In this document: piece after piece, positions 3,001 through 56,073 of the stretch | How positions within the stretch are numbered: position 1 is the first letter of the stretch | Layout of the letters: each line of letters opens with the position of its first letter | Source of the DNA: a virus | IMG/VR virus record: IMGVR_UViG_3300028549_001560 | DNA: 64,000 bases | Direction: 5' to 3' (one strand) | Notes under the pieces: generated by a model | The model's database searches: none | Seen by the model: the letters and a program-made list of their open reading frames with translations, nothing else | What the model was told of the DNA's origin: nothing | Made by a program: the position numbers and the translations under genes

Positions 3001-4363
3001 TAAAAACAAAATGCCTCATCCCTTTAGTGGTTGTAATATTGCTTGTGTCTTGATTATACGGAATATAGTTAACCATATCAACCATATCCTTAGCCCTACC
3101 CATTCTTATTTTAGCTTCAAATATAGTTCTCCAAGCTTGTAGGTTCTTGTTGTCGCTAGCTGTTTGAACTTCTAGTTCACTAAAGAATAGATCTATAGAA
3201 GTATCACCATAAGACAATGTTACTGTATATGCACCTCCTTTATTGAAGAATGCAGTTACTTTAGACCCAGGGAATTCATTTAATATGTTATTAACATATT
3301 CACTGTTTGCTATAGATGATATAATTGAAGTCGGATCATACATTGAAAATCCAGGTAAATGTAAACTAGCTGCGTCGTTACTGTTATCAAATAGTTTTTT
3401 ATCAGAATCGCTAAGAACACTAAATGGAACAGAGAAATCTAGATCATGCATATTCTCGTCTGCTGTTCTATATAGAGTCCCTTGCTCTCTAAGAGATAAT
3501 GACCCTGTAAGTACAGCACCAAGACTATTTAATTTATCTACTATAGTCTTTGCATCAGGGTTGTTGTCTAGAGTTCTATTGAAATTAGTTAATTGAGCAT
3601 CGCTACTTATTTCTGTGCTATATTTAGAAAATACACCATTAAGCATGTCAGAAGCAATTTCAGAAACTAATGAGTTGACTTCATCGCTAGACATTGCTCC
3701 AACTCTAAGAGCTTGTTTTATCTTTCTAGCAAGTTTAAGTAGGTTGTACTTAACAGTCTTTATTAATTTAGTACTTCCAGATATAGACCAATACTCAGCA
3801 ACTCTGGTAGACTCCTGTTTTTCTGAGTTCTCATAGTTAACTATAGCCTCTGCAAGTAGATCAACAACTATTAGTTCTTTTATCTTATAGTCATTTAGAT
3901 TTGTAGACCTTTCTTTATACTTATTATATAGTTCTTGATAATTATCTATATTTTGTATGTTTGATAGCAAGTCTGTTTTTATCTTGTTCTTAGACCCAAG
4001 CATCATTAATCCAACATATGCAGCTTCTTTAGACAAGCCGGATAGATTATTAGAGCTTTCTGTAAGCATTATAAGTTTGCCTATTAAATCTGTAGCAGAT
4101 ATAGCATCGTAGCCAGTGATTGATTTAAGTTCTTCAAATGACTGTACGTCAAATCCAAGCTTAGATAGAAATGCATTTATCTTTTCTTTCTTGCTTGATC
4201 CCTCACTTATCTTATTTATCCCCAACTGCTCTAGTGTTGGCCATTCGTCCGTCTTATTGTTATCCATCCAGATACTCATCTTTGCAGATAGAATAGCAGG
4301 ATGAAGCCCTGACTCATTTGCCAAGGCTTGAAACTGCGGTAATTTAATATTAATACAATTCAT
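1..4363 (-). CDS. Very large virion-associated protein, N-terminal >=1,454 codons only (gene runs off the left window edge)
   Basis: Manual minus-strand translation from ATG 4363-4361 (MNCINIKLPQFQALANESGLHP...) is open in every codon down to position 2. The start lies 10 nt after the TAA of the 4,630-aa gene. It is absent from the ORF track because there is no in-window stop. Function is inferred only from position. Confidence 0.85.
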   Translation of the reverse strand, partial: MNCINIKLPQFQALANESGLHPAILSAKMSIWMDNNKTDEWPTLEQLGINKISEGSSKKEKINAFLSKLGFDVQSFEELKSITGYDAISATDLIGKLIMLTESSNNLSGLSKEAAYVGLMMLGSKNKIKTDLLSNIQNIDNYQELYNKYKERSTNLNDYKIKELIVVDLLAEAIVNYENSEKQESTRVAEYWSISGSTKLIKTVKYNLLKLARKIKQALRVGAMSSDEVNSLVSEIASDMLNGVFSKYSTEISSDAQLTNFNRTLDNNPDAKTIVDKLNSLGAVLTGSLSLREQGTLYRTADENMHDLDFSVPFSVLSDSDKKLFDNSNDAASLHLPGFSMYDPTSIISSIANSEYVNNILNEFPGSKVTAFFNKGGAYTVTLSYGDTSIDLFFSELEVQTASDNKNLQAWRTIFEAKIRMGRAKDMVDMVNYIPYNQDTSNITTTKGMRHFVFKTINMPSSNFTTQGRDLHLNTDPSNKQNSIIFTEKEQDNNIGILESDQFEDTLGSDTSFTTDSKSFYEQLIELGKKVAQKGSKEGLRAVYAIANALSKRTGINFNVISSSEAKKINQRYQDGDSGMYDRSTNTAYIIAEYFDETTPIHEIFSHPFLELIRNSKEFSGIFEKLYKEAMSNMSKSELDGIVAEGLNSNDTREEIVAHYIDSVIKSALNNKNTINDDSVIVKFFKAFAAFIKNQFGITSDINNIKIGATGKQLASWILYGTDEVNLITGEQADNLLNSLNNSKERTPLSTSIILNTSHQAKLSVSEVIPIIKEAISKPNGVDIEESRFMMVRHKHVADSSLGMKTFSDIKSEMANAFRTQLSSIKKREGVDVRYTQKIQKLVATIEESEDIEALIKFIEFAGGTSTQEGEVDKMEKTMIALDERRLRNEKLDSNIIDLAKADFIDMYRNMLKSVESIFAPGSKFFDGVDSNTAGIIRNNIDRIAGKLNNMDIIYDRIFMYQYQNVLLETAAARGDESLKHTLGKNTFEIDHDFSFLFTVLGAPKYSNISQLSVLSTRIKEAKARANSEFTRNSNILKLIALAKSYKKSHLLYTSYNDAYEVDDNGVATGYLVSPLKYGVFLFKFESFKRDLQKKYKLNTVESRPETEKLRSEYDREIHDYLVEHSERMFKPAYYEARLKLSELTRNALDEANDAIHSILSKYMSQDGTPDTINMTRRDSRLLQSAKMNKRNLSSKVNANGELKTGVDLIIAEEISEMNESLFSNGSIKRKPSYDKFNKVLNRYLSEAKTDEDRARVEEWRKKNTAKTIKPEFYELLESIPKRMPMEQFQDEYEELYKTKMEILKRFRDPDTGDIVEEMIDDVLKKIINDIDKRLDEIKAKTEKTDGLKFSDVARVEVSERFEIEKKKIRDAGNKLYAKWLSENPTADIFEKQKKIDELSQGFNQWMEINTREIKGSDGNYFTSPASFWTKIVPINESFIEDGPNSTWSEIDKT

Positions 4364-4373
4364 TTATATTGTT

Positions 4374-7300
4374 TTAATTACATTGTGTTAGTTTATCCCA
4401 CATCTCCTGTGGCATCTTATTGAAATCTTCTGTAGTAAGCGATACTGCTCCAATTGATTTGAAGTGATCATTTATTCTATCCATATCAGCTTGAGATCTA
4501 GTAGATTGCTGCAATTTTATTAATTCATCTCTTACCTCATATCCTGCTGGTAATATAACATTATCTGGTATATAATTACCTCCATTAATGTCGTTAATCT
4601 CCTTTATTTGAGACTTAATTTCCTCGACAGTATATCCAGCTAAAGAACTACCAAGCTTTGTCATATAGAATTTAAGCTCAGGATGGTTATTTGCAAATTC
4701 AAAGAAGTCTGCTAATCCTTCGCCTATCTCATCTAGGGTAGATGATTTCTCAACACTCCAGTCTTTCTTGGTTATAATAGCATATGATTTACCCTGCAAT
4801 CCTTCAGCTTGTCCTTGTTTAGCTCCAAACTTATTTTTAGCCATTAAGGCAGCTCCTTTTCCATGAACGCCTTCCGAATTACTACCGAACACAAAAACCT
4901 CATTCGGCCCCAACTCTGTAATATTTTCAGGAGTGTATTCACGATCTTTCGAAGTATTTTCACTACTTTCATTAACTATAGTGTAAAGAGAATCAATATA
5001 GGCCTGTAGAGGCACTTTAGAGCTCGTCTGTACACCTAGCACATCACTGGTGGATGTTACATATATCTGAGGAATAGGGTCGCTTAAAACGTCTCTAAAT
5101 ACATCTAAAAGCATTTCTTTATATATAATCTTATACGCATCTGATAGATCATTGAAGTCAAAATCCAAGTCAATGGTATCACCTCCGGCTTCTATAATAG
5201 AAAATGCATCAGATATTATATCGCTCATCGCTAATCTATTTTGATCTGTTTGCTCTGATCCGTCATAACCGAATGGTGTATGCATATCTATTTCATCTCT
5301 ACTTACGAATGTAGAGTTGTATGGTACACCTCTCTCTTTTGATAGTTGTTTTAAGATGTCTACCTCGGTAGGAGCTCCATTTATAACTGCATCGTAAATC
5401 AGTGATCCACCTCTGAATTCCGCTTTCTTTGGAAGATTATTTGATTCAATCATTGATTTGTTTACACCAAACTCAAGTATTGGTCTGCCATCCTGCATTG
5501 CTCCTTTTCTGTCTATTGGCATATATACAGGAGCATGTATCGGTTTCTTATCTTTTTTCGAATATTTAATCACAGTCAATCCTATTAACTCGTAAAGTAC
5601 AGTACTCGTAGGCTTAGATTTAGAATCTACAGATAGATTTATATATTTGCTGTATACTGGATATTTATTGTGATTTCTAACATAACTTATGGCCACATTA
5701 TCTATAAGGACGGCTGGATAATTAGATCTACTACCATCTGATATCGTATAATTCTTATGTATCCTGCTTAATTTACCACCAGTTAAACTATATGGATCCT
5801 CATATGTTAATGAAACTTGAGGAACAATATCCTTGTCGTACCATTTATTTTTAGATATTTCACTCATAGAGCTTTCTATATCAAATATAAAATTAGGGTC
5901 CATTATCCTATCTATATCTTCGTAGATTTTGTTATTCTCTCTATCATCTTCGGATAGCTTAACGAAATTCTTCCCTGATTTATCTCCAGATGTTATATAT
6001 TGATATAATATTAAGTCTTCAGCAAACTTCTTAAGAATCTCATTATCGCTTTCAAGTAACTCTGACCAGTATGCTTTAAATTTCGCATTTATACTTTGAT
6101 CTGAATTTGAGATTGCTTTAATATTGATGAAGTCTGCAGAGTTTGAGTCGAAGCCGATAGCCTGAGATAATGAATTAATTATATAGTTATCCTTTAATCT
6201 ATTTAGTTTTGGATCGAGGTCTATCATTTCTTTTATCCTCATAAACCTTTTAGCCATAGAGTTTCTACCAAAGAACATGCCAGGTATATCTATATTGTGA
6301 GTTTTTGCATATTCGTTATAGAAGTCACTCCTTAGAAATGAATCTATAGCATTTAAATGTTTTTTAACAACATTCTCCGATGGCATCTTCTTTATCCCAT
6401 TATTAAAGAAATATCCCTTTAGATCATTCAGTAGCAATCCTGGTCTTGTTCTAAATAATTCACCGTTAGATATCGTCCTGACAGCACTCAACATAAGGTC
6501 CAGCTTAGTACCTAAGAACGAGTTTTCGACTATGCTTGTTGGGTCCGTAAAGAACTTTCCTTGCCCACTCGTTGCAAATTCCATTATCTTGTTCTTAAAT
6601 AATTCTATAGACGTAAATGATATACCGTATTTTTTTGTATCGATCTGAGCTAGCCCAACGTTAGACGCTAGTGCGTCTGCAAATGGACTTATCTGAGAAT
6701 ACATTATAAGCATCTTTAGTTGACCTATTGCGTATTTGAGCTCATCTTTTTCATTCTTCAATTCCATAAGATTTTTTGAACTCATAAATGATTTTCCGAA
6801 AATATTATTGAACGACTCGTAAGCAGACTCATCAAATAATGCCGGATTAGCGAAATTACTAAGTTTTAATATCTCATCTAGAACGGCCTTATTTCCATTA
6901 GCAAGTCTTCTGGCATTTTTAATGTAATCACTAATCATGCCTTTTATTACTTGACTAGATAACTTATTTAAGTCAGTTCCATATGGATTTCCGTATTTAG
7001 TAGATATAACATTTATTCTGTTAGCCATCTCTTTTAATGCTGGCTGAGAAAGATAGTAAAACGTATCTTTACCTATCCCAGATCTAAGCAAAAAGAATAA
7101 TGTGTTATATGTTGTAGGATTTACATTTAATCTGATTATATAAGTGTCTTTAGCAACGTCTACGTGTGCACTAATCATCGCATTCAACCAATCAAGAATT
7201 CTAATGCCATCCTTTCCGATAACGCCGTCACATCCAGACAAATTAAGATACTTCAATATAGGATATTTAGACGAATTTAACTTGAGCCCATACATTTGTG

Positions 7301-16300: not shown

Positions 16301-18266
16301 TAGCTGCAAATCCGTCTATATATGATTCTATAGTGCTGTTTCCATCAGCTAAGGTTCCATTTACGTATCTTTTTCCTGTTATATATTGTTGAGCCTCTTC
16401 AACGCCTTCAAATGGTGCTTGCCACAATCCTTTTCCTATGTACGATGTAGCCATCTTTGCTGGTATATTTTTCATAGAACCCTCTGCTACCTTTTTGAGT
16501 ACTCCAGAAGTAGCTCTGATTGTCTTTCCAAGCATAGACTTCATCTCCATTGACACTCCTCTACTCAACATATTTATGGCTCCCTTCCTGAATATACCAG
16601 AGGGACTAATAGCCACCGCATCAAACATCATATCTGGCACTGAGTTAGACATTTGCTGCCTCTTGTATTCATCTATACCATTAGTGGATGATTTTACTGC
16701 CTTAGATAGATTTTCGTCAGATGTAGGTATCATACCGGAAGCTAACCCTCTTTTAAGTGACTCTATTTGATGTTCAGATAATTGCCCGTTTTTTGATATT
16801 TCATCGAGTGCGCTTTTCTTTACACTATATCCAGCACCACTACTCTTGTCAATCAGATTCAATAACTCTATATCGTCTAATTTATCTATATCGATATTTG
16901 ATATACCTTTGTAATCTTTTTTGAACTTCTCGAGGGTATATTCTGCTAGCTCCATATTTGTCTCTCCCTCTCTTTGGGCTACATTTGACAATACGTTACT
17001 TGCAATTGAAATCCCTTCAGCTATCATTGGCATACCAAGCTTTGATCTAGTAAGGGCACTAACGCCTACGCCAGCGAGCAATGTAACGGTCGAAGGAATA
17101 TAGCTAGCCATAGATAATCCAACTCCACTGATTATCGATTCAGAACTTTCCGGATCCTTTAGCTTTCTTTTATATACTTCTGATATATTCCCACTTCGTA
17201 TATCTATAAGATCCTGTCTTTCGTCTATTTCTTTTTTAACATCTTTATATAAGCCAAATACTTGATGTGTTATTTCAGTTGTCATCGCAGATGTATTGAT
17301 ACTGCTTCGCTCGCCCCTCTGAACCTTCCTTGATTCGTCGGCTAACCCCTTAAATTCCTTTAAGTTCATTTGTTTGCCAAGGCTATTTATCTTGTCATAT
17401 AGACGCGCTTCATCAAATCCCTCATTCTTGTCTTTTTCAGCACCAAAAAGCTCTGTAACGTCAGCAGTTGCATCTAGCAGACCCTTTACGATAGACCAGC
17501 CCTTAGTGGCTTGACTGACCTTAAAATTATCTTTTACAGACAAGTATGACGACAATAAACCAGAATACCTCATGTATGTAGGTTTAAGCTCATCTGGAAT
17601 CTTGTTCAATCCTGGAAGTCCAGATCTTGTTTTATATTCGGCGATAGGTGTTTTTATGCCAAACATCAAGCTAGCCAATACTCCGGCAGATGCAATATCT
17701 GGATCAACGTACGACGATGAAGTTCTCTCATCTCCATATATTACTGGCTTAAATCCAAATTCATCAACACCACCCCATTCGTTTTTATGTAGGTCTAATA
17801 GATGATTATGAAGTGGAGTTACATACTCCCGCTCGTTAGTTTTCCCATTTACATCTACTTCGACATTCCTAGTTTCGTAAAGAAAGTCTAAAAGTTCTGT
17901 AAATTTAGGATCTTTCATTGCTGGCGTAAGCAACTTGCCAACAGCTGTAGCTTTATTGAATTGATCACCAACAAGGCCTTGTAGTTGTAGCTGAACACTC
18001 CTATCTAGGTTGTTCATAAACTCATATACAGTTCCTGAGGCGAAATTTAAATCCTCAGAATCTTCAGAAACAGGACTACCCGTACTAGATTTCTCAGGTA
18101 CAGGTAGTTTACGTCCTCTAACATTTGTATTGTTGAGAGCCTTCTCTATTAAGGCTTCGTTGTCAAATTTAGAAACATTAGAGGACAAATTTTTACTAAC
18201 CTCTTCAAAATATTTCTGATCACTACCAGACAATGCGATAGCTCCTCCTTTTTGTTTTTTACTCAT
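4374..18266 (-). CDS. Giant multidomain virion protein (4,630 aa) containing a crAss-type virion RNA polymerase module, a zincin-like HExxH motif and a C-terminal alpha/beta module
   Basis: Single uninterrupted ORF. GSDFDIDKLFLARY (aa 3453-3457 = DxDxD metal loop of two-barrel RNAPs, as in the crAss-like virion RNAP family). FHEAYHKV at aa 1978-1982. Acidic/Pro-Thr-rich linker around aa 1030-1190. FVFGSNSEGVHGKGAA module near the C-terminus. Confidence 0.8.
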   Translation of the reverse strand: MSKKQKGGAIALSGSDQKYFEEVSKNLSSNVSKFDNEALIEKALNNTNVRGRKLPVPEKSSTGSPVSEDSEDLNFASGTVYEFMNNLDRSVQLQLQGLVGDQFNKATAVGKLLTPAMKDPKFTELLDFLYETRNVEVDVNGKTNEREYVTPLHNHLLDLHKNEWGGVDEFGFKPVIYGDERTSSSYVDPDIASAGVLASLMFGIKTPIAEYKTRSGLPGLNKIPDELKPTYMRYSGLLSSYLSVKDNFKVSQATKGWSIVKGLLDATADVTELFGAEKDKNEGFDEARLYDKINSLGKQMNLKEFKGLADESRKVQRGERSSINTSAMTTEITHQVFGLYKDVKKEIDERQDLIDIRSGNISEVYKRKLKDPESSESIISGVGLSMASYIPSTVTLLAGVGVSALTRSKLGMPMIAEGISIASNVLSNVAQREGETNMELAEYTLEKFKKDYKGISNIDIDKLDDIELLNLIDKSSGAGYSVKKSALDEISKNGQLSEHQIESLKRGLASGMIPTSDENLSKAVKSSTNGIDEYKRQQMSNSVPDMMFDAVAISPSGIFRKGAINMLSRGVSMEMKSMLGKTIRATSGVLKKVAEGSMKNIPAKMATSYIGKGLWQAPFEGVEEAQQYITGKRYVNGTLADGNSTIESYIDGFAANLTGVSYLLGMNSGAELYVDRSELKTNAKIGAISGFGQTVVTSTLHGIPGVKGQYAQKRADEFVDGLVNSRFDVDGSMNKSKMYTTGVSGHDGDRLYSALKNRYESEPDAEKKAILKEELDFAGTARAIYNSNSINAITDGLGWSKSGANSIKADATALAMAHKLEYDKAMSEVGRRKKTIDAYKVDDYGPAITSMINRISEAHESKNGAPLADSEKLRLARAMADAAASRFISNKSEADIKAYNGKTEKSQDGATRMIDPKSDKDQFNGDRELSNVYMKSSSIEANLRVRNMMEYMSDLFPELELSSIESELNEMHTGIPSEVFDNFLVSNSARYGAIYDKTVYDNILDKSRHTNKDSYQDYVFDKVSRYRESGEAEDNTMNSPMPGSDSKTNTLAPIETTEVTAKENLPATEVVTTPVVQAQQPAATAQAQKSESPAVTVSEDPIGEYDEIVPEPQSDDNAPSLVLGDEDVIVTAIENEEEDTQSEIALDWAFGMKTDTKEESDDRLEIELAIETASKEVEPEVVEDVIGTSISVESVTEAKESEVHLQEARSVVLASVTPGNKFVHFGKVLTYFKNHPAYESVIEWVKTLSSKNSKYKSEVVVYYMGETVNELTLDQLDAIEADRDYAQKHPGDNRFNNKWDSLMVGVRVTKGDESFIVNMRNPAKMVSPENSVRPTDAEIDLLKSNRDNLIQLFIDAMRIDSNMGTKTKIIPNIKASHNITKKQGSRKLGDVDGFEFPRDANGNIDFEKINVETMDFSYRSNRDGFSILQTIRGSVMSRGPVSGSNSQGGIHVFVTNPYSGDRVPIKLNPLEFGQSDKESAAAGTQSIVDIVCGMLFSEKFADNITIDKTTGRIIPSGDTKALVGGVAISIPISSFLETMINFNTSYVHDSGKSSTEDEFLVSKHIKVSGHVLSLAGKQYTLNALSAKDKAEIRAHIAKNITFKVDKLSLVDGTQDGAPDKTVSDVFPGLNQYQFDALMNNGNDVAIDFGAFTIERSDLNLTWFAFLIKKGLIRTDTFPTIFAPAYLNLESVHEYIEKPDGTPAQAAVIAAKPGGELVDLQSNEQKNSELPDLDTVKERIRIAKAKAEIESRRQDTLKYSPKVKQIKGVLDNELDETAGTKTSAVINLGASGEAIIENADGTSSTSQYKFKATEEEASEAGRINNMKPSRERKRLQFDLGKRIARRLLDEINAEYDAEIAALEAQGNTQAKSDTNTPDSTDKSVKTPENKPGSDFKVVDQSMDFDEDFGPLREQENSDYELINMAQELEWLRDKLNIQPGDVEVVKDLIKVGRDKLAMGVMRDSGIVLSMAAEIGTSFHEAYHKVSLLLLPRETRVKIYEEARNRWPQLKGLSNEQVEEFLAEKFREYVMKNGTVKNFTRLQIAFRKIYNFIRKIVGFSNSDIDRLFNDINRGMFRYDSINSESLREFKAIYGSSVNRHVASDLKMMNLDEFYESINGMTYMLFQLGGVVNKSNKINETKAYNDLYANIEILANKALADGDNSRHEVLSEILEHFEDKFKPQIKKYIDFIGYEDNISDDIDPNAIENDQEITRADLSEYTESNKFNHKDRVLPEVKAFIATMPLAKVVDGRMKSIKSELTGFNSFIPFDTAWNVMISRLGSANDIDSMMNRIANLAKTDPFFRILGRRLANQSVEFNTKFFTSVNTQRHEYITASYRDTEDGMRWDIRDISEKEAEKLHPKIWGNNLSANDNVYDYNENGDRLFDPKHIQSAIDAYENLIVESKSMTYTAIASKFVEILGMVGIDVDQATFDGMFLIGNNDLNIRKNFVDYISSGYSVNKSNPSILFRNILPKLIKNNGRYMKSFIIGKEVEKNVSAIYAGEPFAEKLAREYARTHPSPEEVMVSAADGGKMYAISLPNYMTTIVNRLREDSTYRSLIKSVKFNRGRGDGNRPVGSMILSQMQEAIDKGRKVEVKLKTFVKLYQEGTADKGRDYFGMSVLEDYIFKMQATLRDFMVLPTMADKKTYYLLSGLKWFNGAVNKLFVDTTNRKVTFSSYVVSQFSEYAAAEFEAMKEAWNLYKSLSLAKSEAEYMDTQSSMMPTYHYFEGKDGSIKPGNGLFFRHFNFEVNSSDGKGMTTLNDMLSEAYKTGDVSKVDEMMDRLSRNYFNNSDEAKSLLPAKISATLQDRLLDEIEYAESIGAISYPVKTGDRFRDAMQIANLALDEKEISEHLKYYNIDKNNGSNPIALINMMAANMVNTMASTIEYEKIFAKDPAFHKNDEAKIKRHSTMLSTGNNLRTIFPVGHRLHNKEKYSVTELNDSNIVSQHLKELTIKAIASNANRRLTDAGESPDSGLLEALMSNSGILPEDYNKSVKEAVNSVREASIDQMSGYGNVDETDATAYCSPMHYRETKERLGEWEPWMDEALAILESEDMGWMSDPVKAELANKLQLQPLKMIYVGNSVENGLDILVINKMAIFPVFKHHSTAGLSDMYSMMNPTETEKMYGVKPIDMFIFKTAIKDGNRRGATYAKKDKDGNITGYAKRDELKVTTQEFKFLRKQLVTDPHEPGEMRMATQINKMAMSNIDKSRIYSKAKFSNGNEMTGDQLISAYDSANKELAKRGFDRLLKRLGDKASVYKYLYDSAIESGMPEDLVSKLKEAADGRPFRLEYVIDNAWVESKLMSLIGSEIIDINTPGGMFIQRTPFGLSSVNTDALNSNKISEDEFNEKTGGLRMLNNGKRLNFFRDNNAIEAIVSINLFMDIIPSNIIAHEDRVKWLMDRNIIGPNSAPSAIGYRVPNQGPSSSAVLLIVDVLPTTDGDTIILPSEFTKMTGSDFDIDKLFLARYSYEDYNTGNRIPITTEERDELRTAYKKWADTPIGSNKGVVITNESKFAKKSAALSEFLSTEYKKGIRYDPETAEIYRNEKDKRVARFDDSLGYSDPKNSDAAIKNRLLDMYMAVLADDISFAEAKLPLDTATDYLTGVVLADIEKGVRADKKKSRPLNYISPSYQSQKKYEYTTGKSGVGPSALNNAHHVLAQMYGLKLNSSKYPILKYLNLSGCDGVIGKDGIRILDWLNAMISAHVDVAKDTYIIRLNVNPTTYNTLFFLLRSGIGKDTFYYLSQPALKEMANRINVISTKYGNPYGTDLNKLSSQVIKGMISDYIKNARRLANGNKAVLDEILKLSNFANPALFDESAYESFNNIFGKSFMSSKNLMELKNEKDELKYAIGQLKMLIMYSQISPFADALASNVGLAQIDTKKYGISFTSIELFKNKIMEFATSGQGKFFTDPTSIVENSFLGTKLDLMLSAVRTISNGELFRTRPGLLLNDLKGYFFNNGIKKMPSENVVKKHLNAIDSFLRSDFYNEYAKTHNIDIPGMFFGRNSMAKRFMRIKEMIDLDPKLNRLKDNYIINSLSQAIGFDSNSADFINIKAISNSDQSINAKFKAYWSELLESDNEILKKFAEDLILYQYITSGDKSGKNFVKLSEDDRENNKIYEDIDRIMDPNFIFDIESSMSEISKNKWYDKDIVPQVSLTYEDPYSLTGGKLSRIHKNYTISDGSRSNYPAVLIDNVAISYVRNHNKYPVYSKYINLSVDSKSKPTSTVLYELIGLTVIKYSKKDKKPIHAPVYMPIDRKGAMQDGRPILEFGVNKSMIESNNLPKKAEFRGGSLIYDAVINGAPTEVDILKQLSKERGVPYNSTFVSRDEIDMHTPFGYDGSEQTDQNRLAMSDIISDAFSIIEAGGDTIDLDFDFNDLSDAYKIIYKEMLLDVFRDVLSDPIPQIYVTSTSDVLGVQTSSKVPLQAYIDSLYTIVNESSENTSKDREYTPENITELGPNEVFVFGSNSEGVHGKGAALMAKNKFGAKQGQAEGLQGKSYAIITKKDWSVEKSSTLDEIGEGLADFFEFANNHPELKFYMTKLGSSLAGYTVEEIKSQIKEINDINGGNYIPDNVILPAGYEVRDELIKLQQSTRSQADMDRINDHFKSIGAVSLTTEDFNKMPQEMWDKLTQCN
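4497..4949 (-). other. C-terminal ~150-aa alpha/beta nucleotide-binding-like module of the giant protein (family not named)
   Basis: Ordered motifs VFVFGSNSEGVHGKGAAL, GLQGKSYAIITK and KLGSSLAGYT. The arrangement resembles macro/SLOG-type small-nucleotide-binding folds. Confidence 0.35.
7896..7910 (-). other. DFDID catalytic-loop motif of the RNA polymerase module
   Basis: Plus strand tttatcaatatcgaagtc reverse-complements to GAC TTC GAT ATT GAT AAA = DFDIDK. Confidence 0.75.
12321..12335 (-). other. HExxH (HEAYH) zinc-metallopeptidase-type motif inside the giant protein
   Basis: Plus strand gtgatacgcctcatg reverse-complements to CAT GAG GCG TAT CAC = HEAYH, in the context GTSFHEAYHKVSLLLLP. 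Confidence 0.5.
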
Positions 18267-50320: not shown

Positions 50321-50986
50321 TTATAGGTTAAGTAAGCCTCTATCTTGTGATTTTAAACTTGAAGTCTCAGACCAAGAATTAGAGAATAGTGGCTTATCAA
50401 AAAGGTTTTTGTTTCTTATTTCTTGCTCTTTCTTTTTTACATGCAAGTTGTGTAATTGCTCTCTAAATATCATTAAACACTGTAGGGCTCTAACTCTATC
50501 GAAATTACCTTTGTCGTTGTATTGTATTAGTTCTTCTATCAATGGCTCAGACAATATTCTGGTCAGGTTTTTAAATCCAGGAGCATACTCTTCATTCAAC
50601 CACTCTTTAATTAATCCCTCAGAATAATCTATGATCTGAGTAGTCATATGGATGCCTTTTCTCCTCTGTACAGTAGATCTTCCTATGATATCATTTATTA
50701 TATCCGGCTGATCTGCCAGCAAATAGTCTGAATGCTTTTGTGTAAAATATGGAAATATACCCTTTCTTTCGTTCTCGTATAATAATTTAGCGTTATAATA
50801 CAACAATAAACTCCTAACGTTCTCATAGTAGTCTTCAGCTCTATCGGGCCTTCCTGTATACTCTGCCACAATAACGTCATAGTACTCTTCAAAGCTCTGG
50901 AATCTTTTATATATAAATGTTGATCCTAATGAATTAGTTCCAGCCTTATCATGGTCGTCGATTGTGTTATCGATAGGCTTTTTATC
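50321..50986 (-). CDS. terL: Large terminase, 3' exon (C-terminal part of the nuclease domain)
   Basis: The frame of the listed ORF 50321-50869 stays open upstream to 50986. It reads DKKPIDNTIDDHDKAGTNSLGSTFIYKRFQSFEEYYDVIVAEYTGRPDR..., which continues the ...YIAG/CDP nuclease motif of the upstream ORF. The listed M is a GTG inside this frame. Confidence 0.7.
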   Translation of the reverse strand, partial: DKKPIDNTIDDHDKAGTNSLGSTFIYKRFQSFEEYYDVIVAEYTGRPDRAEDYYENVRSLLLYYNAKLLYENERKGIFPYFTQKHSDYLLADQPDIINDIIGRSTVQRRKGIHMTTQIIDYSEGLIKEWLNEEYAPGFKNLTRILSEPLIEELIQYNDKGNFDRVRALQCLMIFREQLHNLHVKKKEQEIRNKNLFDKPLFSNSWSETSSLKSQDRGLLNL

Positions 50987-51220
50987 CTATCTTCTGGGGG
51001 TCACCCCGCATTATAGTATGTTGCTTCATACCCAGTCCAGCGTACATTATCAATATTGATTATTGTTGAGCACTCTTGGCAGAATTATATTTATTCATCT
51101 GCTACGCGTTACGGTGACAATTAGCCTTTCGAAATCTAATTGTTTACCTCGGTGTTTTCTACTAGAGACTTTCACCGATTTTGCTCAATTCTTACGACGT
51201 ATGTCGCACCGCTAAGTTAA
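50987..51220 (-). ncRNA. ORF-less group-I-like intron splitting terL (boundaries +/- ~15 nt)
   Basis: About 230 nt with stops in all frames and visibly less AT-rich, lying between two halves of one conserved TerL motif. Hairpins include GCGAC/GUCGU, UCGGUG/CACCGA, CAAUUAG/CUAAUUG, GCAGA/UCUGC, GGUAUG/CAUACU and GGGG/CCCC. A possible P1 is CCGU|UAACUUA GCGG. The 3' end is ...AGAUAG(G). Confidence 0.55.
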
Positions 51221-53758
51221 CGGGTCACAATTATGTGTGACGATATTTCTACACATATAAGTGTGTGTATCACATTCAAAATTATATACAGTTCCAGTAT
51301 ATTTTGATCTATCTATCTTCACTATAGGAATATATATATATTTTCCGCATTCAGATAATAATACTCTTTTTGAGCTCCCAATAGTTGAGTCTACCTGTTC
51401 TCTTATTATTCTATTTATCTTATTGCTAGAAATAATAGATTCTATTCCAATTGGCACTATCTTTTTAATAGATGATCTTGCTACTGATAGTCTATATGAC
51501 TCCTTGCTTATATATTCTTTGTTATTAAATATAGATATAGATTTTTTACTGTGTCTAGTTATGGTATTTGATATTCCAGTAGAAAATAGTATATCTTGTA
51601 TTGATTCAAGTAACTCCAGATTTATACTTGTAAAGTTAACTCTTAATTTTCCTCTATCATAGTATGCGCTTCCATCTGAATCTAAATATCCAGATATCAT
51701 GTATTTTCTTAATTCATCTCTAGATAGCTTAGCCCACTCTGGAATTCTTTTGCCGTATGAATACTTTCCAAATTCTTTTTCTAGTAAATCAAATAGTGGC
51801 TTATGTGTAAATCTTCTTGTATTTCCACCATTTGTCTTACAATGAATCGTCTTTCTATTGAAAAGTTTTTCAATTACATTATCAAATTGGATTGCACTTT
51901 CTGTTTGATCTATTCCAAAAGCAACATATATATCATGAGAATTACCATTTCTATTATTAAACCCACCTCCAAGCCAGACTCCTATAAACCACCAAAATAG
52001 ATTATTATCTGGGTCTACATAAGCTCCCAGATATTTATATATCTTTGATACATATTCTTCTGTATATGATCCGTATTTATTCGGTATTTTTAGTCTATCT
52101 CCAGTTTTTAAATATTTTGCTTCTATAAATTGATCTTCTATTAAAATTGGATGCTCCTCTGTAAAATTGGTACCTCTATAAGATCCGTATGGGGTTACCC
52201 TATATGTATCGTGATTTTCTTTGTGTCTTTTTTGGAATACCTTTATCTTAACAGTTTCTCCTTTTTCATTTATTAATTGATCATTATGATCTACTAATTC
52301 TACGTTCTTAAGTCCATTGTTTGTCAGAACCTTCTCCCCTGGAGTTAGACAGCCAGCTATATATAATCCATGTGGTGAGTCCTTAACTGGATGTTCCCAT
52401 ATCACTATAGAACCAGTCGTAGCATCATTCTTTCCTAATGGATATTTGGTTATGTCTCCGCCTTTTTTTATTTGCCATGTTAGGACACCGTTTATATATA
52501 CTAGATCTCCAACCTGCTTATGGGATTGAAGCTTCCTATTGGATCTAATAAGAGATAGTTGAGCCATCAACTCTTTTTTTGGAAATATATTTCCAGTTAA
52601 TTCTAAGCAGGCTTCTTGCGGTGTTACTGGATTTTCGGCAGAATATCTATCTATTGCTCTAGAGTCAGATGATCCTTCGATAACCTTCTCTCTTTCGCTC
52701 ATTGCGTATGCTATAGCCTTATCTTTAAATGTATTACCATTATTATCCATGTAGCATCTATTACCATCCTTATCGAGAACAGACATATTTGCATACACTG
52801 GAACAAAGAAAGCGCATTCATTCCCATCTGCACCCTCATCCCATGCATTATTAAATGATTTTACATTATACCCCTTAGGATTGTAAAACATTTCCTTGAG
52901 TCCGTCGAACCTACTTGAATCATCACCGCCAGTCCCAAATGCAACCATCAAGCCATACGCAACACCATCTTCTTCTACAGAAGGCCTAGCAATTTGCCAT
53001 GCTTGCAGAATATCCTTGAATGATCCAGCCTCCTCCCATAGTATGAGTTTTCCGCGTTTACCACGGGCGCGGTTAGGGTCGTTTTTAAGTGTTACTCCAA
53101 TTATCTCAGATTTATAACCAACCTCAATTCTGTTGCCCATTTCATCTGTTGTTACAATTGATGCTCTTCTATGCATCTTAGTACTAACAGCTTGACGTTT
53201 CTTTGACCAGGCGGTATGCTCATCTATAAAGTCCATTAAATCCCATGCTTTTGTTATGAGTCCATCGCGAACTAAATATTCTGTCTCTGATGCAATTGCA
53301 TATGATTTAGACTCTGGTATGAGATAATAGTTTCTAACAAGCATAGAACTACCTTTAAACGAATAGCCCTTACCACGCGCCTTTAACACAACCATGTGCT
53401 TGCCCTCATCCTCTGCTTCTTGTATTCCTGAAAAATAATAATAGTCGTAATCATAAAAATCCGGAAACTCTCTAGTCTTCTCCCTCTTCTTTCTCATGAC
53501 GCCATGTCTATCTTTATACTCAACCTCTACAAGCCTTAATATTGGGCAGTAATTTAAATACCAATAATTATATCCACTTATCCAATCGCCATCGTCCGCT
53601 GTATATCCATCAATACATCTAGCTTCTTCTCCTTCCCAGTACTTTAAATACTCGGATGACCCTACTGGTGCAGAACAATAAAAGCCGCTATCCTGAAATC
53701 GGATAGCAGCCTGACGAAATTTCTGAGAATTTAAAACCCTTCTTTCGAAATCTATCAT
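51212..53758 (-). CDS. terL: Large terminase, 5' exon (ATPase domain and start of nuclease domain), with an in-frame intein
   Basis: Walker A-like VVLKARGKGYS and Walker B-like KLILWEEAG. The extein sequence ...PHGLYIAG is interrupted at Cys470. The ORF ends ...THN/CDPLT*, with TAG 51212-51214 predicted to be intronic. Confidence 0.85.
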   Translation of the reverse strand: MIDFERRVLNSQKFRQAAIRFQDSGFYCSAPVGSSEYLKYWEGEEARCIDGYTADDGDWISGYNYWYLNYCPILRLVEVEYKDRHGVMRKKREKTREFPDFYDYDYYYFSGIQEAEDEGKHMVVLKARGKGYSFKGSSMLVRNYYLIPESKSYAIASETEYLVRDGLITKAWDLMDFIDEHTAWSKKRQAVSTKMHRRASIVTTDEMGNRIEVGYKSEIIGVTLKNDPNRARGKRGKLILWEEAGSFKDILQAWQIARPSVEEDGVAYGLMVAFGTGGDDSSRFDGLKEMFYNPKGYNVKSFNNAWDEGADGNECAFFVPVYANMSVLDKDGNRCYMDNNGNTFKDKAIAYAMSEREKVIEGSSDSRAIDRYSAENPVTPQEACLELTGNIFPKKELMAQLSLIRSNRKLQSHKQVGDLVYINGVLTWQIKKGGDITKYPLGKNDATTGSIVIWEHPVKDSPHGLYIAGCLTPGEKVLTNNGLKNVELVDHNDQLINEKGETVKIKVFQKRHKENHDTYRVTPYGSYRGTNFTEEHPILIEDQFIEAKYLKTGDRLKIPNKYGSYTEEYVSKIYKYLGAYVDPDNNLFWWFIGVWLGGGFNNRNGNSHDIYVAFGIDQTESAIQFDNVIEKLFNRKTIHCKTNGGNTRRFTHKPLFDLLEKEFGKYSYGKRIPEWAKLSRDELRKYMISGYLDSDGSAYYDRGKLRVNFTSINLELLESIQDILFSTGISNTITRHSKKSISIFNNKEYISKESYRLSVARSSIKKIVPIGIESIISSNKINRIIREQVDSTIGSSKRVLLSECGKYIYIPIVKIDRSKYTGTVYNFECDTHTYMCRNIVTHNCDPLT
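51230..52351 (-). mobile_element. Intein (374 aa) with a LAGLIDADG homing-endonuclease domain, inserted in terL
   Basis: N-terminal junction YIAG|CLTPGEKVLT (Cys1 codon at 52351-52349). C-terminal junction IVTHN|C (Asn codon at 51232-51230, +1 Cys). LAGLIDADG blocks WWFIGVWLGGGF and ISGYLDSDGSAY. Confidence 0.85.
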
Positions 53759-55344: not shown

Positions 55345-55709
55345 TATTTACCGCAACATCTCTTGTATTTAATTTCACTACCACATTCACATAAAGTATT
55401 TCTACCCTGCTTCTTTTTGCTTCTCTTGAATGGAATAAGCTTAAGCCCAAACTGTTTTCTAAATGCCTTTGTCCATACTTGTTGTTCGAACCATTCTTTG
55501 GTTCCAAACTTTGGCTCTTCTTTTACTGGCTCCAATAATTCCATAGCCTCATCTAGAGGCATATCCTTGTAATCCTCTGGATTACTACTAAGCTGCGATC
55601 TCAGTACTTTCTTCTGGCTTGCTTGCATCTTGTTCTTTATTATCTGTACTTCCATAACCACCTTCTCCTCTTTCAGTTTCAGATAGCTTTTCTGATACCT
55701 CAAATTCAA
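55344..55709 (-). CDS. Small protein with a C-terminal SEC-C-type zinc motif (start uncertain)
   Basis: C-terminus CECGSEIKYKRCCGK matches the CxCGSxxKYKxCCG SEC-C motif. The listed start is a TTG that overlaps dut by 122 nt. In-frame ATGs occur at 55655, 55628 and 55562. Confidence 0.55.
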   Translation of the reverse strand: MNLRYQKSYLKLKEEKVVMEVQIIKNKMQASQKKVLRSQLSSNPEDYKDMPLDEAMELLEPVKEEPKFGTKEWFEQQVWTKAFRKQFGLKLIPFKRSKKKQGRNTLCECGSEIKYKRCCGK

Positions 55710-56073
55710 TTTTCGGATATGGCATTATTATTAATTGAGCAAATCGCTCTCCCTCTGTATATATCACAGGAGTAGTATTTGTATTTACTTTGTATTTAAC
55801 TGTAACTACCCCTCTGTAGTCTGAGTCAATTACTCCTACACAGTTTGTTTGAACTAGCGACATTTTAGATATAGAGGATCTTGGGAAGATTAATCCTACA
55901 TACCCTTCGGGGATTTCTATAGAAAGACCTGTTGAGTATACTAGTGTAGGCACTCCGTCTTTAGAATGTTCTATACCAATTTCTACTGCTGTTAAATCCA
56001 TTCCTGCAGATCCATCTGTACCGTACATTGGAATCACTGCTTTTTCGTGTCTCTTTTCTATTTTTACTATCAT
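55588..56073 (-). CDS. dut: dUTP pyrophosphatase (dUTPase)
   Basis: DGSAGMDL, IFPRSS, GVIDSDYRG, FAQLII and RGEGGYGST correspond to the five trimeric dUTPase motifs. Confidence 0.9.
   Translation of the reverse strand: MIVKIEKRHEKAVIPMYGTDGSAGMDLTAVEIGIEHSKDGVPTLVYSTGLSIEIPEGYVGLIFPRSSISKMSLVQTNCVGVIDSDYRGVVTVKYKVNTNTTPVIYTEGERFAQLIIMPYPKIEFEVSEKLSETERGEGGYGSTDNKEQDASKPEESTEIAA

What the first reader, a model, noticed from the sequence alone, without database searches (positions are those of the whole stretch)
50987..52351. terL hit by two different selfish elements within five codons at the nuclease active-site motif
The TerL frame reads ...PHGLYIAG | intein (374 aa) | CDPLT-TAG. After about 230 non-coding nt it resumes as DKKPIDNTIDDHDKAGTNSLGSTFIYK.... 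The hydrophobic-strand-Gly-x-Asp-Pro motif of the RNase-H-like terminase nuclease is therefore interrupted twice. It is interrupted at the protein level by an intein (C-terminal junction at 51230/51229). It is interrupted at the RNA level by an intron-like insert starting no more than 15 nt later. Inteins and group I introns are each known to home into catalytic sites and have been reported in crAss-like phages. Adjacent occupancy of one site by both is a notable configuration. Functional TerL would require two successive splicing events.
Basis: partly seen in the sequence, partly recalled or inferred. Interest (0 to 1): 0.8.

Follow-up and report, generated by a model that had tools for sequence, protein, structure and literature searches.

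The report
Intein and intron side-by-side in terminase
The DNA-packaging enzyme gene of this gut crAss-like phage is interrupted, only 10 bases apart, by a protein-level parasite (an intein) and an RNA-level parasite (a small group I intron), so an intact enzyme needs both RNA splicing and protein splicing; both element types are well known, but this tight pairing recurs in many gut phages and is missed by current annotation.

Summary
On the minus strand, TerL reads N-extein (53758-52352), a 374-aa intein (52351-51230), then 10 nt of C-extein (TGT GAC CCG T, 51229-51220). A 261-nt ORF-less group I intron follows (51219-50959), then exon 2 (50958-50321).

Removing both elements gives a 2055-nt CDS reading ...YIAGCDPYDHDKAG.... 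It aligns without gaps to uninterrupted relatives that are 89-93% identical.

The intein has Cys1, TxxH, HN/Cys+1 and a PI-SceI/TliVMA-like fold. Its first LAGLIDADG Asp is Gly, so its endonuclease is probably dead.

The intron has U.G at the 5' splice site, a terminal G, and a P3-P9 core with a P3/P7 pseudoknot. In 16 relatives 95% of pairs form and 33 pairs show compensatory change. It is homologous to the terL intron of Lactobacillus phage JCL1032. Rfam misses both.

All four states occur in nature: empty, intein-only, intron-only and both. The double state is common (30 of 45 intron-bearing TerL loci) and sits unannotated in RefSeq cr7_1 and cr131_1.

Both are known kinds of element in an unusually tight configuration. 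Interest is moderate.

The parts
52352..53758 (-). TerL exon 1, N-extein (469 aa; ATPase domain plus the start of the nuclease domain, ending ...PHGLYIAG)
   Evidence: ORF. PHROG 6681 terminase large subunit, E 1.7e-84. 93% aa identity to the uninterrupted P0001. An AF2 model of that close homologue matches T4 gp17, Sf6 gp2 and HK97 TerL.
51230..52351 (-). Intein, 374 aa: Cys1 (CLTPGEK), block B TEEH, C-terminal ...VYNFECDTHTYMCRNIVTHN, with an internal LAGLIDADG homing-endonuclease domain
   Evidence: Boundaries come from uninterrupted homologues and from the intein alignment. Pfam LAGLIDADG_3 E 5e-9; PT-HINT E 2e-4, below its cut-off. Foldseek against PDB: TliVMA intein 7qss E 1e-16, PI-SceI, PI-PfuI, PI-PkoII, I-DmoI.
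51965..51967 (-). GGT (Gly598 of the ORF) at the position of the catalytic Asp of LAGLIDADG motif 1 (WLGGGF here, WLGDGF in all relatives)
   Evidence: In the intein alignment 8 of 8 other inteins at this site have D. In A4, 15 of 16 have D. The codon was checked. P0039, returned by the database search as a record from sample SRR21758068, has the identical 848-aa sequence.
51668..51691 (-). LAGLIDADG motif 2 (GYLDSDGS), acidic residue retained
51220..51229 (-). Last 10 nt of exon 1 = start of the C-extein: TGT GAC CCG T (Cys+1, Asp, Pro, first base of Tyr). Its last 4 nt form the exon strand of P1.
   Evidence: Compared with cr118_1 (...THN|CDPYDHDK) and P0001-P0004 (...AGCDPYDHDK). P1 appears in the MFE fold.
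50959..51219 (-). Group I intron, 261 nt, without an ORF, subgroup IA-like (extra hairpin P7.1 between P7 and P3')
   Evidence: nhmmer with the family alignment gives E 7.7e-56 and a single copy in the window. blastn finds phage introns. Covariation: 54 pairs, 95.2% paired against 29-45% when slid, 33 pairs with compensatory change. MFE z-score -3.25.
51209..51214 (-). Internal guide sequence GCGG (51212-51209), pairing with exon CCGU (51223-51220). The G at 51212 makes the U.G wobble with the last exon base and is also the G of the in-frame TAG stop (51214-51212).
51066..51188 (-). Core helices: P3 (51188-51182 / 51072-51066), P4 (51178-51173 / 51154-51149), P5, P6 (51143-51136 / 51124-51117), P7 5' strand GCGUA (51107-51103), P7.1 (51102-51098 / 51083-51079)
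   Evidence: Coordinates. Pair support.
50959..51061 (-). P8 hairpin (51061-51049), P7 3' strand UACGC (51044-51040, pseudoknotted with P3), P9 region, P9.1 hairpin (50990-50973), 3' tail ...GAUAACACAAUCG ending in the terminal G at 50959
50321..50958 (-). TerL exon 2: AC GAC CAT GAT AAG ... = (Y)DHDKAGTNSLGSTFIYK..., 212 aa plus stop; the rest of the nuclease domain
   Evidence: PHROG 6681 profile positions 547-744, E 1.7e-51. 89% aa identity to P0001. Gapless alignment to the empty allele.

Best explanation
terL of this Suoliviridae-like crAss phage carries two unrelated selfish elements, inserted 10 nt apart in the codons for the invariant G-C-D-P-Y-D-H-D stretch. That stretch lies at the first beta-strand of the C-terminal nuclease domain.

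Step 1, RNA (inferred from structure and homology). The 261-nt ORF-less group I intron (51219-50959) folds into a P1-P9 ribozyme. P1 pairs exon CCGU with the guide GCGG, placing a U.G wobble at the 5' splice site. An exogenous guanosine attacks after U51220. The freed exon then attacks after the terminal G at 50959 and joins ...CCG T to AC GAC..., which restores the Tyr codon. An in-frame TAG in the P1 loop stops ribosomes before they enter the ribozyme core.

Step 2, protein (inferred from motifs and fold). The spliced mRNA encodes N-extein-intein-C-extein. The class-1 intein (Cys1, TxxH, His-Asn, Cys+1) excises itself and ligates ...YIAG to CDPYDHDK.... The result is a 684-aa TerL identical in length and register to uninterrupted relatives.

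The two elements are separately inherited. All four occupancy states exist in nature, and intein alleles have been exchanged on an almost unchanged extein-plus-intron background. In this window the intein's homing endonuclease has lost a catalytic Asp (D to G). The intein here is therefore probably a splicing-competent but immobile passenger.
For: Boundaries and colinearity:
- Uninterrupted P0001-P0004 read LYIAGCDPYDHDKAGTNSLGSTFIYK, exactly the conceptual double-spliced product.
- The spliced CDS is 2055 nt and gapless against L028:6001-8055.
- The TerL PHROG profile is colinear across both parts.

Intein:
- Canonical residues and alignment with 8 inteins at the same site.
- LAGLIDADG_3 hit.
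- An AF2 model with pLDDT 80-90 over the intein matches the TliVMA intein at E 1e-16, and also PI-SceI, PI-PfuI and I-DmoI.

Intron:
- blastn links its core to introns and intron-like inserts in terL of Lactobacillus phage JCL1032 (whose CDS is annotated as a join), and in Staphylococcus and Clostridium phages.
- In a 16-sequence alignment 95.2% of pair cells are paired, against 29-45% in slid controls. Compensatory changes occur in 33 pairs, and 0 of 500 shuffles reach the observed values. The P7 pair that crosses P3 covaries G-C/A-U.
- U.G in P1 and MFE z-score -3.25.
- All TerL copies whose 3' end lies on the fetched DNA end in G immediately before AYGAYCAYGA, restoring CDPYDHD.
- In-frame insertion and an early stop codon are typical of phage group I introns (PMC2504315).

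Separate inheritance:
- Intein-only: cr118_1 and 16 protein clusters.
- Intron-only: L013, L019, L027 and 15 metagenome loci.
- Both: 30 metagenome loci plus cr7_1 and cr131_1.
- cr7_1 against L023: exteins 98% aa, intron 98%, intein 71.5%. Fourfold-site identity is 73-83% in the exteins and 53% in the intein. The drop coincides with the intein boundaries.
Against: - No RNA or protein data: neither splicing event has been observed.
- Rfam's group I model gives no hit even at E<=10. This carries little weight, because the JCL1032 terL intron, in a CDS annotated as spliced, is missed as well.
- No convincing P10 pairing with exon 2 in the window copy.
- The TerL nuclease domain of the AF2 model has only moderate confidence (pLDDT about 50-85). 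No sequence-level match to solved terminases was found. The 'catalytic Asp' assignment is therefore inferred.
- The D-to-G change shows only that one catalytic residue is missing, not that the endonuclease is inactive.
Confidence: 0.88

Rival explanations
1. Cooperative mobility. The ORF-less intron is mobilised by the neighbouring intein's LAGLIDADG endonuclease. The enzyme cuts empty terL alleles at the intein site, and double-strand-break repair from a doubly occupied donor co-converts the intron 10 nt away. The pair would then spread as one unit (trans-homing or hitch-hiking).
For: - The intron has no ORF, so it needs an external endonuclease or reverse splicing to move.
- It lies 10 nt from the intein site, well inside typical co-conversion tracts.
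- In the window's own clade both elements are present together (window, L021, L014), while the nearest extein relatives P0001-P0004 lack both.
- 30 of 45 intron-bearing loci also carry the intein.
- There is precedent for a defunct or ORF-less intron being carried by another endonuclease: T4 mobE and I-TevIII (PMC2790892).
Against: - Intron-only alleles are frequent (15 of 45), and intein-only alleles are frequent too (16 of the 120 best protein clusters). Neither element needs the other.
- Intein alleles differ strongly (71.5% aa) on near-identical intron backgrounds. This shows intein turnover without visible intron turnover.
- Members of the same intron family elsewhere sit next to their own HNH or other endonuclease ORFs, which gives an alternative source of mobility.
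- No co-conversion tract could be detected.
- The window's own endonuclease lacks a catalytic Asp.
Confidence: 0.2
2. Mutual exclusion or protection. The intron, beginning at +11 relative to the intein site, alters the 3' half of the endonuclease target. Intron-only alleles would then be immune to intein invasion, and double occupancy would arise only by intron entry into intein-bearing alleles or by flanking recombination.
For: - LAGLIDADG intein endonucleases recognise long sites spanning the insertion point. PI-SceI bound to its DNA is among the structural matches; the size of its site is from general knowledge.
- The intron replaces the sequence from +11 onward.
- Neighbouring inteins are known to interfere with each other's homing (PMC10643990).
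Against: - At >=98% intron identity, three clusters contain both intron-only and doubly occupied alleles.
- Divergent inteins sit on the same intron background. This is most simply explained by inteins entering, or being replaced in, intron-bearing alleles.
Confidence: 0.1
3. Regulatory use. Incomplete or conditional RNA or protein splicing is exploited by the phage. One example would be to delay nuclease-competent TerL. Another would be to produce an ATPase-only product (N-extein plus CDPLT, about 479 aa after protein splicing of the 848-aa translation product of unspliced mRNA).
For: - The unspliced message encodes a complete intein plus Cys+1 before the TAG. It could therefore still splice at the protein level and release a truncated TerL.
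- The double arrangement is maintained in many lineages.
Against: - Closely related phages do without either element. No essential regulatory role can therefore be attached to them.
- The presence/absence polymorphism is the signature of selfish elements.
- No data on expression.
Confidence: 0.07
4. The gene is broken. The 261-nt insert is a decayed, non-splicing remnant, and TerL is a pseudogene or works as two polypeptides.
For: - No experimental splicing data.
- No Rfam hit.
- RefSeq annotators called only the truncated ORF in cr7_1 and cr131_1.
Against: - TerL is essential for a tailed phage, by general knowledge.
- Exon 2 is 89% identical in protein to intact relatives and has no frameshifts.
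- The ribozyme helices are kept by compensatory substitutions across divergent copies.
- The break falls within the first strand of the nuclease fold, an unlikely place for a viable split.
Confidence: 0.03

Closest known systems
Bacillus phage SPbeta bnrdE: a group I intron plus an intein in one ribonucleotide reductase gene (Lazarevic et al. 1998; commentary 'Lightning strikes twice: intron-intein coincidence', Derbyshire & Belfort 1998; both cited in PMC3653736 and PMC8270828)
   Same: [quoted passage not shown] The active enzyme needs RNA splicing and then protein splicing. Both elements sit in conserved regions.
   Different: In SPbeta the intron ends about 0.4 kb upstream of the intein (first exon ends near L031:17550, intein starts at 18225), and the intron comes first. 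Here the intein comes first and the intron starts 10 nt (3.3 codons) later, inside the same conserved motif. The host gene is terL rather than nrdE.
TerL inteins of Delta-group crAss-like phages (Suoliviridae) (Yutin et al. 2021, PMC7886860; review PMC10136315)
   Same: Same phage group and same host protein. Hint plus LAGLIDADG inteins in TerL, some genomes with two inteins. I see four intein sites in this TerL family.
   Different: Those surveys found introns through their endonuclease ORFs. [quoted passage not shown] An ORF-less intron in terL beside the intein is not described. In RefSeq cr7_1 and cr131_1 the TerL CDS simply stops at the intron.
Group I introns in phage terL genes: Lactobacillus phage JCL1032, Staphylococcus phages, B. 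cereus-group prophages (PMC2504315), Jug phages (PMC12880540)
   Same: Small subgroup-IA ribozymes. The core is 70-80% identical over about 90-200 nt and shares all helices in alignment A1. Insertion is in frame with an early stop codon. The Jug phage terL introns were confirmed by metatranscriptome reads.
   Different: The insertion site in TerL differs (here the nuclease motif), and the host phages are unrelated (Bacteroidota phages against Firmicutes phages). The P1 guide is adapted to CCGU. Some relatives carry HNH or other ORFs, whereas this one has none.
Trans-homing of an element by a neighbouring endonuclease (T4 mobE and the defunct I-TevIII intron, PMC2790892) and interference between neighbouring inteins (Haloferax MCM, PMC10643990)
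   Same: Two homing-type elements close enough that cleavage or repair at one affects inheritance of the other.
   Different: Those systems were tested genetically. Here any interaction is only an inference. The pair is an intein and an intron, rather than intron and free-standing gene or intein and intein.

Membership tests
Intein (class 1, HINT domain) | N-terminal Cys/Ser nucleophile at the first intein residue | tested here: met
   Cys1 in CLTPGEK directly after ...YIAG. Conserved in all 9 inteins at this site.
Intein (class 1, HINT domain) | Block B Thr-x-x-His | tested here: met
   FTEEHPIL. T and H are invariant in the alignment.
Intein (class 1, HINT domain) | C-terminal His-Asn followed by Cys/Ser/Thr at +1 | tested here: met
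   ...IVTHN|C. H842, N843 and C844 are invariant in A4.
Intein (class 1, HINT domain) | In-frame insertion whose removal restores a protein colinear with uninterrupted homologues | tested here: met
   P0001-P0004 read YIAGCDPYDHDK. Gapless 2055-nt alignment.
Intein (class 1, HINT domain) | HINT fold / homology to solved inteins | tested here: met
   Foldseek: TliVMA intein 7qss E 1e-16, PI-SceI 1ef0/1vde, PI-PfuI 1dq3, PI-PkoII 2cw7. Sequence level is weak only: PT-HINT 21.9 bits, below the 27.7 cut-off, and PI-PkoII E 0.13.
Intein (class 1, HINT domain) | Protein splicing activity | not testable with these tools
   Needs expression and mass spectrometry or a gel shift.
LAGLIDADG homing endonuclease (active, monomeric two-motif type) | Two LAGLIDADG motifs, each ending in a catalytic acidic residue | tested here: not met
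   Motif 2 GYLDSDGS is intact. Motif 1 reads WLGGGF (GGT at 51967-51965), where every relative has GDG. The domain fold is present (Pfam E 5e-9; I-DmoI matches).
Group I intron | 5' splice site after a U that forms a U.G wobble with the internal guide in P1 | tested here: met
   Exon CCGU (51223-51220) pairs with GCGG (51212-51209), with U51220.G51212. The pairing is the same in the related TerL copies, but my search pattern required it there.
Group I intron | Terminal guanosine at the 3' end of the intron | tested here: met
   G at 50959. In all 60 TerL copies whose 3' splice site lies on the fetched DNA, the intron ends in G before AYGAYCAYGA.
Group I intron | Conserved core P3-P4-P5-P6-P7-P8-P9 with the P3/P7 pseudoknot, supported by covariation | tested here: met
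   54 pairs in 9 helices, 95.2% paired against 29-45% when slid, 33 pairs with changes on both sides, 0 of 500 shuffles. The crossing P7 helix is 100% paired, with one G-C/A-U covarying pair.
Group I intron | Match to the curated Rfam model Intron_gpI (RF00028) | tested here: inconclusive
   No hit at E<=10. The control intron in JCL1032 terL, annotated as a spliced join, is also not detected.
Group I intron | Homology to introns known or annotated to splice | tested here: met
   blastn gives 70-81% identity to the JCL1032 terL intron, to Staphylococcus phage ROSA, SA2 and others, to Clostridium phages, and to the cr6_1 'intron-encoded endonuclease' locus. ROSA and JCL1032 introns are listed as relatives of IA1/IA2 B. 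cereus phage introns in PMC2504315.
Group I intron | Guanosine-dependent self-splicing | not testable with these tools
   Needs an in vitro transcript plus GTP, or RNA-seq junction reads.
Mobile group I intron with its own homing endonuclease gene | Endonuclease ORF within the intron | tested here: not met
   261 nt. All three sense-strand frames are closed by stop codons and no endonuclease-sized ORF fits.
Terminase large subunit, RNase-H-like nuclease active site | Host protein is TerL (ATPase plus nuclease) | tested here: met
   PHROG 6681. An AF2 model of the 91%-identical P0001 matches T4 gp17 3cpe (E 5.5e-9, 583 columns), Sf6 gp2, HK97 and D6E TerL.
Terminase large subunit, RNase-H-like nuclease active site | The interrupted motif carries the first catalytic Asp at the end of strand beta-1 of the nuclease domain | tested here: inconclusive
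   Strand 466-471 (YIAGCD) ends in the invariant D471, and D474 and D476 are invariant. This fits the hydrophobic-strand-G-x-D pattern. No residue-level superposition on a solved nuclease was available, and local pLDDT is only about 55-80.

The most novel reading that the evidence does not exclude
The intein and the ORF-less intron behave as an interacting pair of homing elements. The intein's LAGLIDADG endonuclease would supply the double-strand break that also carries the intron (10 nt away) into empty terL alleles. Conversely, the intron would reshape the endonuclease target. The four natural allele states would then form a rock-paper-scissors-like cycle. An intron mobilised in trans by an intein-encoded endonuclease has not, to my knowledge, been described.
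Probability: 0.2. Interest if true: 0.75.

Novelty: new member of a known kind. Interest (0 to 1): 0.5.

Why it matters
1. Annotation. terL is the main marker gene for Crassvirales taxonomy. In doubly occupied genomes, including RefSeq cr7_1 and cr131_1, the C-terminal 212 or so residues are left unannotated, because ORF-less introns are invisible to protein-domain searches and to Rfam.

2. Biology of selfish elements. The intein and the intron sit 10 nt apart, against about 0.4 kb in the textbook SPbeta case. All four occupancy states are abundant in public gut metagenomes. This gives a natural, sequence-rich system for asking whether neighbouring homing elements help, block or ignore each other.

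3. Support for a general idea. It is another clear case for the view that catalytic motifs are the preferred refuges of splicing parasites.

Tried and rejected
- Rfam cmscan of the region at E<=10 and of the whole window at gathering thresholds found no group I hit. I do not treat this as evidence against an intron, because the JCL1032 control also fails.
- Stop-codon read-through or TAG recoding does not explain the gap. The frame after TAG has 10 stops, including TGA and TAA, and this TerL has no internal TAG, unlike cr7-type relatives.
- Translational bypassing and a split gene are rejected on the covariation evidence and on the position of the break inside a beta-strand.
- phmmer and profile searches of the spliced TerL against PDB sequences found nothing. 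Pfam has no terminase hit for either part. I therefore used AF2 plus Foldseek.
- A search for co-conversion tracts was uninformative. Window against the empty allele L028 is uniformly about 81% identical, with no local anomaly at the site. cr7_1 against intron-only L027 shows a mosaic, with the upstream part more divergent than the downstream part. That pattern is not the one expected for a simple homing event.
- Window against L021: fourfold sites are saturated in exteins and intein alike, so relative ages cannot be compared in the window's own clade.
- nhmmer with the intron family alignment found no second copy in the window.
- I could not obtain Lazarevic 1998/2001 or Derbyshire & Belfort 1998 from the library. 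I measured the SPbeta spacing from the sequence instead.


Full report
**What is in the sequence**

The finding lies on the minus strand, between the portal gene (50316-47782, PHROG 6547) and a small upstream gene. An 848-aa ORF (53758-51212) reads ...WEHPVKDSPHGLYIAG | CLTPGEK...CRNIVTHN | CDPLT*. It is followed by a stretch closed by ten stop codons in the same frame. That frame reopens at 50986 as DKKPIDNTIDDHDKAGTNSLGSTFIYK... and runs to 50321.

The TerL PHROG profile (6681) matches the first ORF on profile positions 78-542 (E 1.7e-84) and the downstream ORF on positions 547-744 (E 1.7e-51). The two pieces are therefore colinear parts of one TerL.

**Exact boundaries**

A database search with the conceptual spliced protein returned uninterrupted 684-aa relatives at 89-91% identity (P0001-P0003). 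These read ...LYIAGCDPYDHDKAGTNSLGSTFIYKRFQ. The intein-only RefSeq phage cr118_1 reads ...VTHN|CDPYDHDKSG.

Exon 1 then continues for only 10 nt (TGT GAC CCG T, 51229-51220). The intervening sequence is 51219-50959 (261 nt). Exon 2 begins at 50958 (AC GAC CAT GAT AAG), so the Tyr codon is split T|AC.

With both elements removed the CDS is 2055 nt, exactly the length of the empty allele on contig L028, and aligns to it without a single gap (81% nt identity). The junction cannot slide by a base without destroying the nearly invariant Tyr. The assigned junctions are also the ones that put a U before the 5' splice site and a G before the 3' splice site.

**The intein**

It has Cys1, a block-B T-x-x-H (FTEEHP), the block F/G sequence VYNFECDTHTYMCRNIVTHN, and Cys at +1. 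All of these are conserved in eight other inteins at the same TerL site.

Pfam finds a LAGLIDADG_3 domain (E 5e-9) and a sub-threshold HINT match. An AlphaFold model of the window ORF has pLDDT 80-90 over the intein. By Foldseek it matches the TliVMA intein (7qss, E 1e-16), PI-SceI, PI-PfuI, PI-PkoII and the LAGLIDADG enzyme I-DmoI.

One detail stands out. The first LAGLIDADG motif reads WLGGGF (GGT at 51967-51965), whereas every related intein has WLGDGF. The identical 848-aa protein is on record from sample SRR21758068 (P0039). Whether that is a sample other than the window's own is not known to me. The splicing residues are intact but a catalytic Asp of the endonuclease is gone. This is what the homing-cycle model predicts for an element that can no longer move (inference).

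**The intron**

Rfam gives nothing. A control shows that this means little: the terL intron of Lactobacillus phage JCL1032, whose CDS is annotated as a join, is not detected either.

Sensitive blastn of the insert against phage genomes finds its core at 70-81% identity in several places:
- that JCL1032 intron;
- split terL genes of Staphylococcus phage SA2 and Clostridium phage vB_CpeS-1181;
- beside HNH endonuclease genes in Staphylococcus phages such as ROSA;
- behind an 'intron-encoded endonuclease' in crAss phage cr6_1.

ROSA and JCL1032 introns are listed in the literature as relatives of subgroup IA1/IA2 introns of B. cereus-group prophages (PMC2504315).

I aligned 16 copies: 12 from TerL, 2 from another gene, JCL1032 and SA2. 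On this alignment I counted pairs for P3, P4, P5, P6, P7, an extra hairpin between P7 and P3' (P7.1, a subgroup-IA trait), P8, P9 and P9.1, with P7 crossing P3 as in all group I introns. The result:
- 95.2% of pair cells are Watson-Crick or G.U, against 29-45% when the partners are slid by 1-3 columns;
- 33 of 54 pairs show changes on both sides;
- none of 500 shuffles reaches the observed values.

The single-sequence MFE fold (z = -3.25) reproduces P1-P6, P7.1, P8 and P9.1. In P1 it pairs exon CCGU with the guide GCGG, giving the hallmark U.G at the splice site. Every TerL copy whose 3' end lies on the fetched DNA ends in G directly before AYGAYCAYGA, always restoring CDPYDHD.

The intron is in frame (87 codons) and has a TAG in the P1 loop. 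Both features are reported as typical of phage group I introns, where early stops keep ribosomes out of the core (PMC2504315). There is no ORF in the intron and no second copy of this family in the window. I did not find a convincing P10 in the window copy.

**The interrupted motif**

In 42 uninterrupted homologues G469, D471, D474 and D476 are invariant. An AF2 model of P0001 (pLDDT 75) matches full-length TerL structures: T4 gp17 at E 5.5e-9 over 583 columns, and also Sf6, HK97, D6E and P74-26. It places YIAGCD (466-471) as a beta-strand at the start of the C-terminal domain.

This fits the 'hydrophobic strand-G-x-D' first catalytic Asp of the RNase-H-like terminase nuclease. I could not superpose residues, however, and the local confidence is moderate. 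I therefore mark that assignment as inferred.

**Distribution and independence**

A pattern spanning the 5' splice site, the guide and P4 was scanned in IMG/VR and in the metagenome collection. Among TerL loci carrying the intron:
- IMG/VR: 11 also have the intein and 3 do not.
- Metagenomes: 30 have both and 15 are intron-only.

RefSeq cr7_1 (Burzaovirus) and cr131_1 (Cacepaovirus) have both. In these records the TerL CDS ends at the stop inside the intron and exon 2 is not annotated.

Among the 120 best protein clusters:
- 16 carry the nuclease-site intein alone;
- one (P0039, identical to the window ORF) carries both;
- 16 carry inteins at three other TerL sites;
- the rest are empty.

All four states therefore exist. 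At >=98% intron identity, three clusters contain both intron-only and doubly occupied alleles.

The clearest case is cr7_1 against L023. The exteins are 98% identical in protein and the intron 98%, but the inteins only 71.5%. Fourfold-degenerate sites are 73-83% identical in the exteins and 53% in the intein. The drop in nucleotide identity coincides with the intein boundaries and recovers within the 10-nt exon stub and the intron.

Intein alleles have therefore been exchanged on a constant extein-plus-intron background. The two elements have separate histories, and inteins apparently enter, or are replaced in, intron-bearing alleles.

In the window's own clade (window, L021, L014) both elements occur together, while the closest extein relatives lack both. 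Synonymous sites are saturated there, and I could not find co-conversion tracts.

**Mechanism**

The best-supported reading is two independent selfish elements, with expression by RNA splicing followed by protein splicing. I give this a confidence of about 0.88. The missing piece is direct RNA and protein evidence.

Whether the elements interact is open. Two possibilities stand out:
- Hitch-hiking of the ORF-less intron on intein-induced breaks is attractive given the 10-nt spacing, but neither element needs the other (about 0.2).
- Protection of intron-only alleles from the intein endonuclease is weakened by the intein turnover seen on intron backgrounds (about 0.1).

One side observation concerns unspliced mRNA. 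It still encodes N-extein-intein-CDPLT, so it could release the intein and an ATPase-only TerL fragment. Nothing suggests this is used.

**Comparison with what is known**

Intron-intein coincidence in one phage gene has been known since SPbeta bnrdE. From the SPbeta sequence I measured about 0.4 kb between the end of that intron and the start of the intein, against 10 nt here.

[quoted passage not shown] Those surveys located introns through endonuclease domains. They do not mention an intron in terL next to the intein.

Group I introns in terL of other phages are known, and in Jug phages they are supported by metatranscriptomes (PMC12880540).

The elements are thus new members of known kinds. 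The new points are the extreme juxtaposition, its frequency, and the annotation gap.

The portal protein is at most 58% identical to any catalogued phage, with Suoliviridae as the best hits. The window therefore represents an uncatalogued lineage.

**Verdict**

Interest is moderate (0.5): the case is tidy and useful for annotation and for studying interactions between homing elements, but it is not mechanistically unexpected.

Noticed in passing
L001 (NC_055895.1 cr7_1) 3582-4452; L002 (NC_055902.1 cr131_1) 3572-4434: In both RefSeq crAss genomes the 'terminase large subunit' CDS stops inside the intron. The roughly 640-nt exon 2, which encodes most of the nuclease domain, is unannotated before the portal gene. 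Both genomes also recode TAG in terL.
   Followed up: yes
window 51965-51967 (minus strand): The catalytic Asp of the intein's first LAGLIDADG motif is Gly (GGT) in this window and in the identical database record P0039 (sample SRR21758068). All related inteins keep GDG. The endonuclease is probably decaying while the splicing residues stay intact.
   Followed up: partly
L014 (IMGVR_UViG_3300044766_000020) and L019 (IMGVR_UViG_3300013383_000023): L014 terL carries three elements: an intein in the AYGTGG|T motif, the nuclease-site intein, and the intron. L019 carries a P-loop intein (RGY|...|SFKG) plus the intron, but not the nuclease-site intein. Across relatives this TerL family has at least four intein sites.
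   Followed up: partly
L028 2979-4419 (contig with the empty terL allele, sample SRR25391575); window 55588-56073: In the relative with the uninterrupted terL, the dUTPase gene is split by an HNH_3 endonuclease ORF, an intron-like insert. The window's dUTPase is intact. Selfish-element occupancy is mosaic between close relatives.
   Followed up: no
L009, L039, L011, L065/L074 (RNR-like genes); L015, L017, L059, L077 (small gene ending ...VGTNVxYAP): The same intron family, with the same CCGU|UAA 5' splice site and GCGG guide, also sits in ribonucleotide-reductase-like genes directly after the N-P of an NP(C) motif, and in another phage gene. Some of these copies contain long ORF-bearing inserts. 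The L011 gene also has an intein-like segment upstream (...HILTGN|C).
   Followed up: partly
protein clusters P0078, P0079, P0089, P0092: Empty alleles vary at the intein +1 position (GCDP, GNDP, GMDP, GVDP, GIDS). Alleles without Cys/Ser/Thr there could not support splicing of an intein inserted at this site.
   Followed up: no
NC_055872.1 cr118_1 75102-78632: The portal gene of cr118_1 matches the window's 844-aa portal protein in two pieces spread over 3.5 kb. This suggests an insertion (intein or intron) in that portal gene.
   Followed up: no
L005 (Staphylococcus phage SA2) 1481-2640: The split terL there holds a complete copy of the intron-like core, followed by a 199-aa ORF and a further structured stretch before exon 2. 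This may be a composite or twin arrangement.
   Followed up: no
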